Source of the DNA: Leucoraja ocellata
Taxonomy: Eukaryota
Reading direction: 5' to 3'
DNA length: 64,000 nt
Assembly: GCA_036785375.1 (NCBI GenBank)
Contig: JAWMAR010000063.1
Span: 5,766,001-5,830,000, forward strand
Made by a program: the position numbers. Numbering within the stretch: the first letter of the stretch is position 1; each line of letters starts with the position of its first letter. This document shows positions 1-12,000 of the stretch, one piece after another.

Positions 1-3000
1 AAAGAATGAAGAGGACGACATGTACATTGAAGATTGCTACATTCCGCAAAGATCTATTTACGACACCATGAGAATTAATGAACAGATAGACCTCGGGGCA
101 AAGGCTAACCCGCCATCAAGATGTTTTGTTGACCACACACATTCGCAAACCCAGAGAGCTGTGGACTCGAGCACTTTATCAAGTAATGGAACGCCCACTA
201 CATCAAATGTATTTGAAACGCGATTTAGTTCTGAAAGTAAAAAGTTGGATGAAAGACTTATATTTGACGCATTAAAACTGAGCAGTGATGTTATTCGGTC
301 TTCTGGTCCACCAAAGCGGAGACCGCACGTAGAGAGAAAGGAAAACACAAATAGGAGATCCTGGAAAGCTTTCCTGCCTCCAAATTTCCCAGACTTCACA
401 GAACGAACGGAGGTGTCCGCCAATGAGCCGACCGGTAGTTCTAATTCAATTAAAGAGAAGAGGCTTTCTAGCCACTTGCTTGCTGAAAGTCCTGATCTAT
501 CTTCTGAAAAAGAACTGATCGTAGCTAAGTCAACAATAGAAAATGAACACAAATCTGCCAGAACCCTGGTCTTTCAGCAAAGAGCAGAAAGCAAATTGAA
601 AACTCCTGCAGTTTTATCTCAAAGTTCAGAGAGTGAAAGTGCTCCATTAATGGAGTGTAAACATGTACTGGAGATGGCAAGATTTTTACCAGAGCATCAT
701 ACAAGTATATCTGCAACATGGCCCAGAGCCTTCAAGGCCCAAGGGACATTGGAAGATGCCTCATTTCTACATAAAAGAACAATTGATCTGGCACAGGAAA
801 GTATCGTTACCTATGCAGCATCTCTGGAATGTCGAGGGGTGTTGGATTCTGGTGCAACCAGACTAGATGTGCAGGAGGTTACAGCTGAATTTGATGAACA
901 GAATTATGAAGAGGCTTGTAAATGCCACATTAACCCTGAGATGGTGCACCGGTGTGAAACTGAAGAAATGCTATTTACGTCAGAATTTCTGAGTGAAGAA
1001 TTAGCACTTCAGCAACTAGATGCTGTAATCCTGGAAGGTAGAGAGGAAGATACTGACTCCCTATTGCAGTTTGAGCAAGAGGAGCAAAGATTGACTGAGG
1101 AAAAAGACAATCTCATTGAAGACTCGGTACCTCAACAGTTAGATCGCTTAATTATTAAGCAGGTAGATGACACAGTCACTCCAATATTTGAAAAAGAAAA
1201 AGTGATTGATGACGAGGAGCCTGGTAAGAAACAATTTCACCGATATACTGCAATAGAGGTTGTACAGGGAGATACTGAATCACTAATACAATTTAAAGAT
1301 GAAAGAAACCCTATGGATAATGAAAGGTATATTTCTGAGGAATCATTTCAGCTAGATGATGTAGCCTTGGGGGAGGCAGAGGGGGATACAGATTCTCTGA
1401 TACAATTTGAAGAAATGGAGCAAAGCCTCATTGAAGATGCAGAATTGTACGATGAATTGGCATTTCAGCAACTAGATGCTGTCATTTTGGAAAACACAGA
1501 GGTATTCCATTTTGCAATGCAGCTTGAAGAAGATGGGAGACTGATTGAAGATGAAAAATTCCTGGATGAAAAATCAGCACTTCAGCAGCTCGATGCAATC
1601 ATCTTGGAAAACACAGAGAGAGATGCAGTCTCTCCCACACATTTTTACGAAGAGCAGAGACAGACGGAAGACAATTTCATTTTTGAAGAGGCTGCACGTC
1701 AATTGGATGCTGTAATCTTGGAGAACACGAAAGGAGATGCAGACTCCCTCCTCCAGTTTGAAGATGAAGAGCGAAAGATGATTGCAGACAGCAAAGATCT
1801 CTTTGAAGAATCAGCATTTCAACAGCTGGATGCTGTCATCTTGGCAAGCACAGAGGGGGGTGCACATTCGTTAAGGTTTGAACAGGATGAGAAGAGAGTT
1901 ATGGGGACGGCCAAAATAATGGAATCCGACGTATTAATAGAAGGGGAAAAAGAATTTATAACTTTACAAACATTGAGCTCTTTAGTCAGCCGGAGTTCAG
2001 AGGAAGAGAAAATATTTGAAGAGTTAGAAAACAAACAGCATCGCCTGAGGAGAGTTATTGCAACTGAACAAAGATCAACTACTTCTACAGAATGGAAATA
2101 TTATGCTGATCAGAAAGAGATATCCGAATGTATCTTTCTACAAGGGTCTGATACTGACCCTGATGCCAATGTAAATCAAGAACTTACAAATGTATCTGAA
2201 GAAGACTACAATTTACAAATTGGTCACGATGCCTCCGAAGTTATGATCGATGCAAATGAGGTGTTCATTGACGAAAATAGTAATAAAGATGAAGAAACCG
2301 CATTTGTGGTGGAGGTTACAGGTAGTGACTGTGAAACTTTAATTGACGGATGTGGAATGCAGAGTACTGGTGTAAAATGTGAAGGACAACTAAACTCTCT
2401 TCATTTCGAAGAATGTGAACCAATTGCTCTTTGCCCCCCAGCAAATCCATGCACACCAACAGATTCAGATCTTGCTCATTATGCTCAGGAAGTGGTCATG
2501 TTGTCTGCTGTTGAAGAAAATCCGGACATGCCGACAGACTTTGTCCACTTAAATGAACATCAGCTTATTACTGAAATTCCTTCAACAGATTCCATCGAAG
2601 CCTCGTATCTCGATCTCTCGCACTGTGCTCAGCAGATGGCAACGTTGCACTGTGTGGAGGAGACCAGGGATATGCAGGCGGCTTTGGTCCAGTTAGAAGA
2701 ATGTGAAATGGTTGCTGAGCCCCCTACGACGAGTTGTCCTTTCCATCCTTTAGCACCTAGTGTAGATTTCACAAACTGTTCTCAGGAAGTTATAATTTCT
2801 AATGTGATTGATGCAGACTGTGATGCAGACAAACTTCCTGGTAATTCCGATGAAGAAGAGCATGATTTTAATTTGGAAAGTAAAAGCCTTGAATTTGAAG
2901 AATGTGAAGTTACTGTTCAATCAGAGTTCTCTGACTTAGTGGAGCCTGATGCAGCAGAGATTCATAGTCTTCAGAGGGACAACTTCACTGATTTTCAATG

Positions 3001-9000: not shown

Positions 9001-12000
9001 TCTATGGAGCGAAGGAAATAGGCAACGTTTCGGGTCGAAACCCTTCTTCAGACCACACCACTGTCAAATATGTTTTTTTTTTCCATAAATCCATCTTGTC
9101 TCTCTCCATTCCTACATTTGCTTCCCACTTCCTCAATAACAAATTCCAGCATATTCCCCACCACTGAAGTTATGTTAACAGGATTGAAAGGGCTCTATTT
9201 CCTCTCTTTTAAATAGTTGGGTTACATTGCAGTCTTCCAGTCTGCAGTCACATTCTGTTCAAGAATCTAATATTGTGTAACAATCAATGAATCTGCTCTC
9301 TCTAGAGCTGCGCACTTCACAGCCCCAGGATGTATGTCAATGATTACTTTAAACCTAAAAGAACCAACCTGGTTTTTGTAAGATACATTTTCTAAATGGT
9401 TATGTGCATAGCTAGCTCAAATACCATCACATCTGTGAAAACCATTTTATAGCAGTTGGATCTCTGTCAGCATTTCTTTTCTCTCTGGCGCTCGCTCTCT
9501 GGCATTCTCGTTCTCTCACCCAACGTTATGCTCCTCGAAGATAAAATTCTACTGAGAGAATTAGATCAAAGCAGGAGATTTTTATTGTCATGTAGGAACA
9601 CTAAAGGTATAAGGTGCAGTGCATGGGAAGGAACTGCAGATTCTGGGGCTGTGAAGTGAGCAGCTGTAGAGAGAGCAGATTCATTGATTGTTACACAATA
9701 TTAGATGCTGGTTTAAACCAAAGATAGACACAAAATACTGGAGTAACTCAGCGGAAAAGGGCGGCATCTCTGGAAAGAAGGAATGGGTGGGGTTTCGGGT
9801 CAAAACCCTTCTTCAGACTGGCTCTGGATCTTCTCTCCAGAGATGCTGCCTGTTCTGCTGAGTTACTCCATCCATTTCGTGTCTATAAAAGTTGCAGTTC
9901 ATTTTCTGTGCTGCAGATAATGAGCAAGGACACTTCTGGAAGAGCTGAAGTAATTTTAAGTAAAATGTTAAATAAAGGAATGATTTTAAGTGACAATTAT
10001 AAATAATTAAAATACAATATCTTCTAAGTTTTACCAAAGACTGCACACAGTCAGAAAATGTTAAACAAAGGAGGCCGGTTAAAAAAATAAATAGGAATTG
10101 TCAACAGGCCTTTTTATACTCTTCCTACCAGGCATATGATATATAGAGAATAGCTTTATTTATAACTTGGAGGGAAGAGTGGAAGTTCTATTGTTTTTGG
10201 CGTACATTTGGTCATGCGTACATTATCCATGTTCGATGGTGTCCTTTTAAACGTCTCTATCTGATCATGTTGAGTAACAAGTTTTTGTTTACATCTCTAA
10301 GTTGAAATGAAATCTAAGTTCCTCTGTTTTCAGATCTCTGGAGTCGGCTTCAGTTGCACATCAACTTTCTAACATCTTAAGCTTGCTCGTTGTCTTGCAT
10401 AATGTTGGTCAAAGAGAATAATTATACAGACCTTTTAACAAAATCAATCTGTTCCTCCATTTTGCATCTTTGAGCTTGATTTCAATCTGTTCTGTTTTCC
10501 AAGAGAACTTTGTGTATCTGAGTTATTTTAATTGTGTAATGTCTTAAGACTGAATCCTCCATCGCTTGAGAAAATGTAATTAGATAATATTTCATTGTGA
10601 CTTTTTGTGACTTTCATTCTTTTATTTCAGACGTTTCAAAAGGTTCAGGTGGATCCTATACAGTACAAACTTCAGCAGGCCAATGGAGTGGGTCAGGGTC
10701 TTATTCAGAGTGCTGCAAAGAATGCAAATACACAAGGACTTGAACATGATCTAGATGAAACCAATATCAGATGGAACACGCTCAACAAAAAGGTCGGGTT
10801 TTCTTTGTCATTTATGCAAAGCAACATTATTTGGCAGGGTGAGGGTAGGATAGTTATTTATTCCGATGGGAAAGTAATTGAAAAATATTTTAAATAAAAT
10901 CTATATATCGAGACTGTGTGTAAACAGTCATAGAGTCTTACAGCACGGAAACAGGCCCTTCGGCCCAACTCGCTCACACCGGCTAACATGTCCCATCTGC
11001 ACTAGTCCTACCTTCCTGCGTTTGGCCCATATCCCCCTAAATCTGCCCTATCCATGTACCTGTCTAAATGTTTCTTAAACGTTGCGATAGCACCTGCCTC
11101 AACTACCTCTATTGGCACCTTACCACCCTTTGTGTGAAAACGGCAGATCCTTAGTATCAGATCCTTATTAAATCTTTCCCCCCTTAAACCTATGAGCTCT
11201 GGTTCTCGATTCCCCTACTCTGGGCAAGAGACTGTGTCTACCCAATCTATTTCAATCACTAGTTCAAAGGAAATTCATTCTGAATGTTGAGTTTCTAGAA
11301 TGGCAAGCAAGTTGGTCAACAAGTACTTGAGCATTTTTTTAAAAGCTTATCAACATTATGATATTTATGTATACTTATAGGCTCCGATTTTGCTGCCAGT
11401 TCCTTGTCCAATATCCACATTTATTCATACCTCCCAATGGCCACCATGAAGTGCAACAGTGTGGCAGGAGCTTGCTAACGCTCCCCCGCACTAAAGTGGG
11501 GGATCTGTTCTGAGATCCTGTGCTAGGTTACACCGACCTGCTACAGAGACTGCAAGCCCCCTCATTTGAAAGTCAGTTGTAGGGCTGCAGAGAAGAAAAA
11601 TTAAAGCATTTAGGCAAGCTATGCTTTAGTTTTAAATATTTGCTTTTAATTTTATTGTTCCATTTTAGAAATATTATTGATATTATTGATAAATATTGAT
11701 TTATTTACAACTGTTTTAAATGGTGCTGAATACTCATAAACATTGATGCATTTTGATGTCAAAGCCAGGGCCAAGGTTCTGCCATCTGTCTAAGTCTTCC
11801 AGAGTAACTACAGTGCCCTCCATAATGTTTTAGACATTATTTATTTGCCTCTGTACTCCACAATTTGAGATTTGTAATAGAAAGAAATCACACGTGGTTA
11901 AAGTGCACATTGTCAGATTTTATTAAAGGGTATTTTTATACATTTTGGTTTCGCCATGTAGAAATTACAGCTGTGATTATACATAGGTCGTCCCCCATTC

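What the first reader, a model, noticed from the sequence alone, without database searches (positions are those of the whole stretch)
2..10792. KIAA0754-like giant exon can splice in frame into the MACF1 rod: an alternative, actin-binding-less N-terminus
Seen: the 1182-aa acidic ORF has GAG|GTATTT at 3541/3542, exactly on a codon boundary and only 8 codons before its stop. The next MACF1 exon (10631) starts in phase 0, and the same GTATTT donor is used at 23520. The ORF is open to the left edge, so its start is upstream. Recalled: human KIAA0754 sits in a MACF1 intron. Inference: this is an internal first exon. It would replace the CH and plakin domains with ~1200 aa of disordered acidic sequence fused to the distal spectrin rod and microtubule-binding C-terminus. 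The arrangement would then date back to the jawed-vertebrate ancestor.
Basis: partly seen in the sequence, partly recalled or inferred. Interest (0 to 1): 0.75.

Follow-up and report, generated by a model that had tools for sequence, protein, structure and literature searches.

The report
Shark MACF1 alternative leader exon (KIAA0754)
This is the shark version of a giant alternative first coding exon inside the MACF1 gene, already catalogued in other vertebrates as "MACF1 isoforms 6/7", which swaps the actin-binding half of the protein for a long acidic leader.

Summary
An ORF is open from base 2 to a stop at 3566-3568. GAG|GTATTT sits on a codon boundary at 3541/3542, eight codons before the stop, and the next rod exon (10631-10792) starts and ends in phase 0.

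The ORF is an orthologue of KIAA0754, which sources name "MACF1, isoforms 6/7". A catshark gene model joins the leader to the same rod exon, as do 40-odd models from teleosts to a marsupial, none with a CH domain. In read-through models, 41 of 72 show Glu then Val (GTN) at the orthologous point, so the donor is conserved.

In canonical shark MACF1 the exon-2 homologue starts near residue 3188 of 5430. The leader therefore replaces the CH domains, the plakin domain and the proximal rod.

No transcript data for this species were available, so use of the junction here is inferred. The arrangement is already annotated, though the reviews read do not list it.

Side finding: two models named dystonin carry a paralogous leader joined at the homologous rod exon. 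The arrangement probably predates the MACF1/DST split. The window is a shark's, not human.

The parts
2..3541 (+). Giant leader exon: the coding part that lies in the window (1180 codons). The ATG lies about 60 nt left of the window.
   Evidence: ORF. Orthologue of KIAA0754 / MACF1 isoforms 6/7. Collinear with catshark P0002 over residues 1-1179. Start seen in P0001.
2..406 (+). Conserved N-terminal module. It consists of short near-invariant blocks, e.g. residues 8-30, 80-93 and 113-130 of the window translation.
   Evidence: Share of identical residues per 10-residue bin reaches 0.89-1.00 in 30 named orthologues. 54% identical over 148 aa to the DST-type leader P0136. AlphaFold2 mean pLDDT 52.6, with only three short helices.
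992..1921 (+). Seven degenerate acidic repeats of about 39 aa (...QQLDAVILE...DSLLQFE...).
   Evidence: Anchored listing of the units. Also visible in catshark P0002. No DNA-level tandem repeat was found.
3539..3547 (+). Phase-0 splice donor GAG|GTATTT.
   Evidence: It matches 6 of 9 positions of the recalled consensus, equal to or better than 10 of 26 inferred rod donors. The orthologous Glu|Val(GTN) is conserved.
3542..3568 (+). Read-through tail (8 codons, VFIFLSDA) and stop. This is the end of the short product if the donor is not used.
   Evidence: P0001 ends this way. Tails of relatives are short and not conserved between classes.
3542..10630 (+). Intron of the long form (7089 nt). It holds 8 AATAAA and 3 ATTAAA hexamers, the first at 3743.
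   Evidence: No match to the preceding canonical rod exon.
10601..10630 (+). Polypyrimidine tract and AG acceptor of the shared rod exon.
10631..10792 (+). MACF1 rod exon, 54 codons, phase 0-0. It is the exon the leader joins, and it is shared with canonical isoforms.
   Evidence: 94-96% identical to shark MACF1 at residue 3181-3328. It follows the leader in P0002.
14593..63769 (+). 26 further blocks of MACF1 spectrin-rod exons, collinear with canonical Mustelus asterias MACF1 up to residue 4877. Bounds are those of the protein matches.
   Evidence: tblastn. Per-exon identity to shark MACF1 is 84-98%.
23190..23519 (+). The left bound is approximate.

Best explanation
The region is the shark orthologue of the KIAA0754 exon, an alternative first coding exon that lies in the MACF1 intron just upstream of the rod exon encoding canonical residue ~3188.

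Translation starts about 60 nt left of the window. It gives three parts: a conserved, largely unstructured N-terminal module of about 135-160 aa, then roughly 1000 aa of fast-evolving, very acidic sequence (pI 4.2), which includes seven 39-aa repeats.

At GAG|GTATTT (3541/3542) the transcript has two fates.
- Spliced in phase 0 to 10631. This gives a long isoform of the leader plus about 15 spectrin repeats, EF hands and the GAR microtubule-binding domain, about 3400 aa. It lacks the CH domains, the plakin domain and the proximal rod.
- Left unspliced. This adds 8 codons and a stop and gives a 1208-aa short protein.

Shown: the ORF, donor, acceptor and phases; the homology; collinearity with MACF1; conservation of the donor position; and the absence of the leader from canonical isoforms.

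Inferred: that this species uses the junction; that the exon is a true first exon with its own promoter; and that the leader is a tether. The invariant Met-Gly start with Ser at position 6 and nearby Cys residues fits the recalled N-myristoylation/palmitoylation pattern. If so, the long form would link membranes or a docking partner, rather than F-actin, to microtubules.
For: Names and E-values of orthologues (202 hits).

Fused models: 42 of 42 long hits lack PF00307. The Xenopus model P0124 has 15 spectrin stretches, EF hands and GAS2 only.

The catshark P0002 junction is identical to the one proposed.

The exon-2 homologue is internal in 7 of 7 canonical MACF1 proteins, and the leader is absent from all 7.

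The window is collinear with residues 1134-2825 of P0124.

Donor conservation, independent of splice prediction, in 72 named non-human read-through models:
- 22 were located by short BLAST. Of these, 17 show Glu|Val and 2 end exactly at Glu.
- Of the other 50, 24 show ...E|V..HF.
- The tails after that point are 0-289 aa and differ between classes.

The N-terminus MGKPLSRPDCLR is present in 15 of 16 models printed.
Against: No RNA evidence for this species could be examined.

Nearly all fused models are automatic gene predictions, which may copy one another.

The donor is weak (6 of 9), and a better phase-0 site exists inside the ORF.

P0001, the window's own protein, is the unspliced read-through form.

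No full-length fused shark model turned up, although many shark MACF1 isoforms are in the database.

5 of 15 fused models do not end the leader on Glu. Two of them look like intron read-in.

Lipidation rests on a recalled consensus and was tested by no tool. The N-terminus lies outside the window.
Confidence: 0.8

Rival explanations
1. A separate gene nested in a MACF1 intron. The ORF ends at its own stop (3566-3568), the GT at 3542 is never used, and the fused models are prediction chimeras of two same-strand neighbours.
For: The ORF has its own stop 8 codons on. P0001 and 72 named stand-alone models are annotated that way. AATAAA lies 175 nt after the stop, and 8 AATAAA were found against 4.0 expected in the intron. 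The donor motif alone is not significant.
Against: Glu|Val(GTN) is kept at the exact point where protein conservation stops, from shark to mammals, with unconserved tails beyond. Latimeria and Caretta models end exactly there. Sources name the protein as MACF1 isoforms 6/7. The DST paralogue shows the same leader-to-rod arrangement.
Confidence: 0.1
2. An internal cassette exon, not a first exon. Upstream MACF1 exons splice into it, so CH and plakin domains would be kept.
For: The 5' end lies outside the window, so an upstream acceptor cannot be excluded here.
Against: 15 of 16 orthologous models start with the same Met-Gly. All 45 representative hits but a few match from about residue 20 of the protein. 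None of 7 canonical CH-bearing isoforms contains the leader. None of 42 leader-bearing long models has a CH domain.
Confidence: 0.05
3. Only the short product matters. The long form is rare splicing noise from a weak donor next to a strong constitutive acceptor.
For: The donor matches 6 of 9 positions. The mammalian read-through tail VIVAHF is itself conserved, so the short form's end, or the start of the intron, may be under selection.
Against: The reading phase is kept (phase 0 into a phase-0 exon) in shark and in the fused models of all classes. The same junction is kept in the DST paralogue.
Confidence: 0.15

Closest known systems
[quoted passage not shown]
   Same: It has the same N-terminal module (43-58% identity over 14-26% of the query), the same position in MACF1, the same phase-0 Glu|GT donor and the same rod exon joined.
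   Different: Only the first ~160-480 residues align outside sharks. The shark middle part has its own seven acidic 39-aa repeats. One proteomics table lists O94854 under MACF1 with another isoform label (one table row seen).
MACF1c
   Same: It is a MACF1 isoform without the actin-binding domain (reviews PMC4914211 and PMC3352950, passages).
   Different: MACF1c keeps the plakin domain and the whole rod and has no leader. Here the first ~3190 canonical residues are replaced.
MACF1-4
   Same: It has an alternative N-terminus in place of the actin-binding domain (PMC4914211, passages).
   Different: MACF1-4 starts with plectin repeats and keeps the plakin domain. The leader here has no Pfam family at all.
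BPAG1a3 / dystonin-a3
   Same: It is a spectraplakin isoform whose alternative N-terminus carries a conserved myristoylation motif (PMC3352950, passages).
   Different: That N-terminus precedes the CH and plakin domains. The leader here replaces them, and its lipidation is only inferred.
Leader-bearing models named dystonin: P0136 (Plecturocebus cupreus) and P0155 (Aldrovandia affinis)
   Same: They have the same N-terminal module (54% identity over 148 aa, E 4e-51) and join the homologous rod exon.
   Different: The leader is only ~420-430 aa. The rods are paralogous: 62-66% identical to MACF1 of five classes but 71.5% to each other, against 86-91% for MACF1 orthologues.

Membership tests
KIAA0754 / MACF1 isoforms 6/7 leader exon | Sequence homology to the leader | tested here: met
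   202 hits at E<=0.001. Named hits have E 1e-44 to 1e-53. Only 45 representative clusters were found in 1.84 billion proteins.
KIAA0754 / MACF1 isoforms 6/7 leader exon | Lies on the MACF1 strand directly upstream of the rod exon at canonical residue ~3188, with no canonical exon between | tested here: met
KIAA0754 / MACF1 isoforms 6/7 leader exon | Phase-0 donor after a terminal Glu codon, a few codons before the stop | tested here: met
   Window. Relatives: 41 of 72 with Glu|Val by automatic criteria, and 2 more ending at Glu.
KIAA0754 / MACF1 isoforms 6/7 leader exon | Starts with the conserved Met-Gly N-terminus | tested here: inconclusive
   It lies outside the window. It was seen only in P0001, the window's own protein at 99% identity.
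KIAA0754 / MACF1 isoforms 6/7 leader exon | Transcripts that join the leader to the rod in this species | not testable with these tools
   No vertebrate read or transcript collection was available. The joined exon sequence was not built or searched.
KIAA0754 / MACF1 isoforms 6/7 leader exon | The long product lacks CH and plakin domains and keeps spectrin repeats, EF hands and GAR | tested here: met
   Tested in relatives: 0 of 42 with PF00307, and Pfam of P0124. The window itself ends before the EF/GAR exons.
MACF1 (rather than DST) | Rod exons nearer to MACF1 orthologues than the paralogue distance | tested here: met
   84-98% per exon to shark MACF1, against 62-66% for the DST-type models versus MACF1.
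N-myristoylated / palmitoylated proteins | Gly at position 2, a small or hydroxyl residue at position 6, nearby Cys residues (recalled consensus) | not testable with these tools
   The pattern is visible in 15 of 16 N-termini. No predictor or modification data were available. The supplements of PMC4200515, which list modified proteins, were closed.

The most novel reading that the evidence does not exclude
The leader defines an old, overlooked class of spectraplakin isoform. Before MACF1 and DST separated, the ancestral gene would already have had an internal start whose Met-Gly, Cys-bearing, motif-rich leader was spliced in phase 0 to the same mid-rod exon. That gives a protein that ties microtubules to something other than actin, possibly a membrane through lipid anchors. 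Both paralogues have kept it for the whole of jawed-vertebrate history, yet the spectraplakin reviews read here do not list it.
Probability: 0.45. Interest if true: 0.55.

Novelty: already known. Interest (0 to 1): 0.3.

Why it matters
For this window it matters little.

The wider point has more weight. The two isoform reviews read here list MACF1a1-3, MACF1-4, b and c, but no KIAA0754-led form. One of them (PMC4914211) also states the total, six isoforms. None of the 11 papers that hold both KIAA0754 and MACF1 is about the splice, judged by title.

A leader conserved from sharks to mammals, and apparently shared with DST, suggests a function of the distal rod and microtubule-binding end that does not need actin binding. 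Genetic and knock-down studies aimed at 5' MACF1 exons would not touch this isoform.

Tried and rejected
Pfam on the leader (window 2-3541 and P0001) found no family at E<=1 and E<=0.001 respectively.

PDB sequence search with the leader found 0 chains at E<=0.01.

ESM Atlas with residues 1-166 gave no usable hit.

AlphaFold2 on a 31-row alignment of the N-terminal 246 residues gave mean pLDDT 52.6 and pTM 0.21. It was too poor for a fold search, so none was run.

Tandem Repeats Finder on 1-3600 found only two trivial rows, so the protein repeats are too diverged at DNA level.

Treating the donor motif as significant on its own was rejected, because there are 6 phase-0 AG|GTR sites in the ORF.

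Taking every 'Dystonin' name at face value was rejected. Anolis P0158 is 86.6% identical to chicken MACF1 and is therefore MACF1. P0136 and P0155 are true paralogues.

Names and taxa for ten weak unnamed representatives could not be had, because the database was off. It therefore stays unknown whether cyclostomes or invertebrates have the module.

Poly(A) hexamers after the stop are present but uninformative.

The bacterial/archaeal genome collection and the phage, plasmid and E. coli collections were not used, being irrelevant to a shark gene.
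Full report
**What is in the sequence**

The + strand carries an ORF listed as 20..3568 (1182 aa from the first ATG). Its frame is already open at base 2. The window has no N.

GAG (3539-3541) is followed by GTATTT (3542-3547). Base 3542 starts a codon, and eight codons and a stop follow.

A 30-nt pyrimidine-rich tract ends in AG at 10629-10630. The exon that starts at 10631 reads TFQKVQVDP... and ends AAG|GT at 10792/10793, so it has 54 codons and is phase 0 at both ends. 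CTG|GTATTT at 23519/23520 ends another rod-exon match.

**Is the donor more than chance?**

Not by motif. The ORF has 63 phase-0 GT, 10 phase-0 AG|GT and 6 phase-0 AG|GTR sites.

Against the recalled U1 consensus the site scores 6 of 9. An internal site at 1163 scores 7.

I also scored 26 rod-exon donors, inferred from the ends of protein matches. I did not validate these by joining exons. Their scores were:

| Matches of 9 | Donors |
|---|---|
| 5 | 1 |
| 6 | 9 |
| 7 | 7 |
| 8 | 9 |

Six of the 26 start GTAT. The site is weak but ordinary for this gene.

**Identity of the ORF**

Pfam finds nothing in it and the PDB holds no relative.

The protein search gave 202 hits at E<=0.001, of which the best 120 are listed.
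- The top hit, P0001, is the window's own protein (99% identical, 1208 aa).
- The second, P0002, is a Scyliorhinus torazame model of 1362 aa that also carries spectrin repeats.
[quoted passage not shown] They come from coelacanth, frogs, reptiles, birds, mammals and teleosts.
- Outside sharks only the first 12-34% of the query aligns.

P0001 begins MGKPLSRPDC..., 20 residues before the window's first codon, so the start codon is about 60 nt left of the window.

**The window is a shark's, not human**

Its rod exons are 84-98% identical to MACF1 of Mustelus, Pristiophorus and Chiloscyllium, against 59-96% to frog, chicken and sugar glider. I took no contig for human.

**Test of the splice model, exon by exon**

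I did not build or search a joined exon 1 + exon 2 sequence. Each exon was compared on its own.

In P0002 the leader homologue ends ...DADIE and is followed at once by TFQKVQVDP..., which is 94% identical to the window's exon 2.

The search for longer proteins gave 42 hits of 2202-3424 aa, from teleosts, Xenopus, reptiles, birds and a marsupial. None lists the CH domain PF00307.

I compared 20 named models with the two window exons apart.
- 15 contain the exon-2 homologue after a leader. It starts at residue 795-1139 in 14 of them, and at 280 in the Acipenser sinensis model P0116, which NCBI flags UNVERIFIED_CONTAM and whose N-terminus is also the odd one out.
- The other 5 were four stand-alone models and Paramormyrops P0162.
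- In 10 of the 15 the leader ends on Glu.
- Two of the other five (a turtle and a crocodile model) end ...LLVQ or ...FLVQ, which looks like the end of the intron read as protein.

Xenopus P0124 has 15 spectrin stretches, EF hands and a GAS2 domain, and nothing else. The window is collinear with its residues 1134-2825 of 3396.

**Evidence that does not depend on splice prediction**

Stand-alone models are plain read-throughs of genomic DNA.

I took the 72 named non-human stand-alone models. Set aside beforehand were 40 unnamed hits, 5 models with spectrin repeats, the entry labelled Homo sapiens, and a UniRef isoform-7 entry of unstated species.

- Short BLAST with the 30 residues before the junction of five fused models located the site in 22. 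Of these, 17 read Glu|Val, 2 (Latimeria and Caretta) end exactly at Glu, 1 reads Glu|Ala, 1 reads Glu|Cys and 1 was mislocated.
- Of the remaining 50, 24 match ...E|V..HF. About ten of the 26 unmatched show close variants by eye.
- The tails after the Glu are 0-289 aa (median 29) in the first set and 12-45 aa in the second. They differ between classes (VFV... in sauropsids, VIVAHF in mammals, VFIFLSDA in the window).

A Val codon starts with GT. The GT is thus kept exactly where protein conservation stops, from shark to mammal.

**Where the leader joins**

A third search, with the Xenopus rod segment, returned CH-bearing MACF1 of 5100-5900 aa, including four shark species (3635 hits, best 120 listed).

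In 7 of 7 canonical proteins tested the exon-2 homologue is internal. For example it starts at residue 3188 of 5430 in Mustelus asterias and is preceded by ...QQLADFK. The leader matches none of the 7. The preceding canonical exon is not in the window (best E 0.023, to a different repeat).

The leader therefore replaces about 3190 residues: the CH domains, the plakin domain and the proximal rod.

One paper's table places a human MACF1 exon-52 variant (p.3144) at 39,854,131 and a KIAA0754 exon-1 variant at 39,879,412. The paper calls one variant shared by both genes (PMC4450850, passages and Table 2 text). This agrees with the position found here.

**Nature of the leader**

The part in the window has 22.6% Asp+Glu, a net charge of about -176 and pI 4.19. 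Only the first 250 residues are near neutral.

Residues 331-640 hold seven degenerate repeats of about 39 aa. These are also seen in the catshark.

Conservation across 30 named orthologues is confined to short blocks, at residues 8-30, 58-64, 80-93 and 113-130.

AlphaFold2 predicts no globular domain: mean pLDDT 52.6 and three short helices.

The family is small, with 45 representative clusters in 1.84 billion proteins. Nearly all match from residue ~20 of the protein, as expected of an N-terminal module.

15 of 16 printed N-termini start MGKPLSRPDCLR. That this fits the N-myristoylation and palmitoylation patterns is my recollection and was tested by no tool.

**Known or new**

The sources' own names ('MACF1, isoforms 6/7') show that the leader-to-rod isoform is catalogued. 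The catshark model already shows it in a shark. I therefore rate the finding as already known.

The literature I could search is silent on it.
- 11 papers hold KIAA0754 and MACF1. By title and abstract listing none is on the splice, and the one I read treats them as two overlapping genes.
- No paper holds KIAA0754 and 'myristoyl'.
- Two reviews, read as passages, list only MACF1a1-3, MACF1-4, b and c (PMC3352950; PMC4914211). PMC4914211 also gives the total as six isoforms.
- PMC4200515 (passages) names MACF1 as a post-translationally myristoylated protein and does not mention KIAA0754. Its supplements were closed.

**Side finding**

Two leader-bearing models named dystonin have a ~420-430-aa leader with the same module. 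They are P0136 (Plecturocebus cupreus) and P0155 (Aldrovandia affinis). The module is 54% identical over 148 aa, E 4e-51, and it is joined to the homologue of exon 2.

Their rods are 62-66% identical to MACF1 of pig, glider, chicken, frog and shark alike, but 71.5% to each other. MACF1 orthologues reach 86% (pig/glider) and 91% (wombat fused/pig).

Their N-termini also group together: 209 bits to each other, against 160 and 124 bits to MACF1-type leaders of a primate and an eel.

They are therefore the DST paralogue, and the arrangement probably predates the MACF1/DST split. Both are automatic gene models. I saw no transcript evidence.

**Unchecked**

- Any RNA evidence.
- DNA-level conservation of the donor in other cartilaginous fishes.
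- The origin of unnamed hits. This includes a 2636-aa hit on a 9093-nt contig in the listing, which has the size relation of a spliced transcript. I did not examine it.

Noticed in passing
outside the window: proteins P0136 and P0155: A paralogous leader of about 420-430 aa, with the same N-terminal module, is joined to the homologous rod exon in two models whose rods are DST-type. This suggests the arrangement is older than the MACF1/DST split.
   Followed up: partly
about 60 nt left of window base 2 (seen in P0001): The protein starts MGKPLSRPDC..., invariant in 15 of 16 models printed. Gly2, Ser6 and nearby Cys residues fit the recalled acylation patterns. No paper was found that links KIAA0754 and myristoylation.
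   Followed up: partly
window 992-1921 (+): Seven degenerate acidic repeats of about 39 aa inside the leader. They are shared with the catshark model but not alignable to tetrapod leaders.
   Followed up: partly
window 12339-12629 (+), in the intron after exon 10631-10792: An ORF with a Tc1/Tc3-type transposase helix-turn-helix (PF01498, E 1.1e-12). Neighbouring ORFs in other frames gave no Pfam match, so it looks like a decayed transposon remnant.
   Followed up: partly
window 18827-19132 (-), 61470-61955 (-), 56450-56830 (+), 58968-59231 (+): Four intronic ORFs encode very similar peptides (...[20 protein letters not shown]...). This is evidently a dispersed repeat. Three of the four ORFs were scanned against Pfam, with no match; 58968-59231 was not scanned.
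   Followed up: partly
proteins P0139 and P0140: The turtle and crocodile fused models carry ...LLVQ / ...FLVQ just before the exon-2 homologue and start at leader residue 23. This looks like intron sequence read as protein, that is, a model artefact.
   Followed up: no
Many shark MACF1 isoform models (Mustelus, Chiloscyllium, Pristiophorus) are in the database, but no full-length leader-bearing shark model appeared among the 42 long hits. Only the partial catshark model shows the junction.
   Followed up: no
window 3743 (+): AATAAA lies 175 nt after the leader's stop. There are 8 AATAAA in 3569-10630 against 4.0 expected from base composition. This is compatible with an intronic poly(A) site for the short form but is not evidence for it.
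   Followed up: no
mammalian stand-alone models: The read-through tail VIVAHF just after the donor is conserved in 24 placental models. Either the start of the intron or the end of the short product is under constraint.
   Followed up: no
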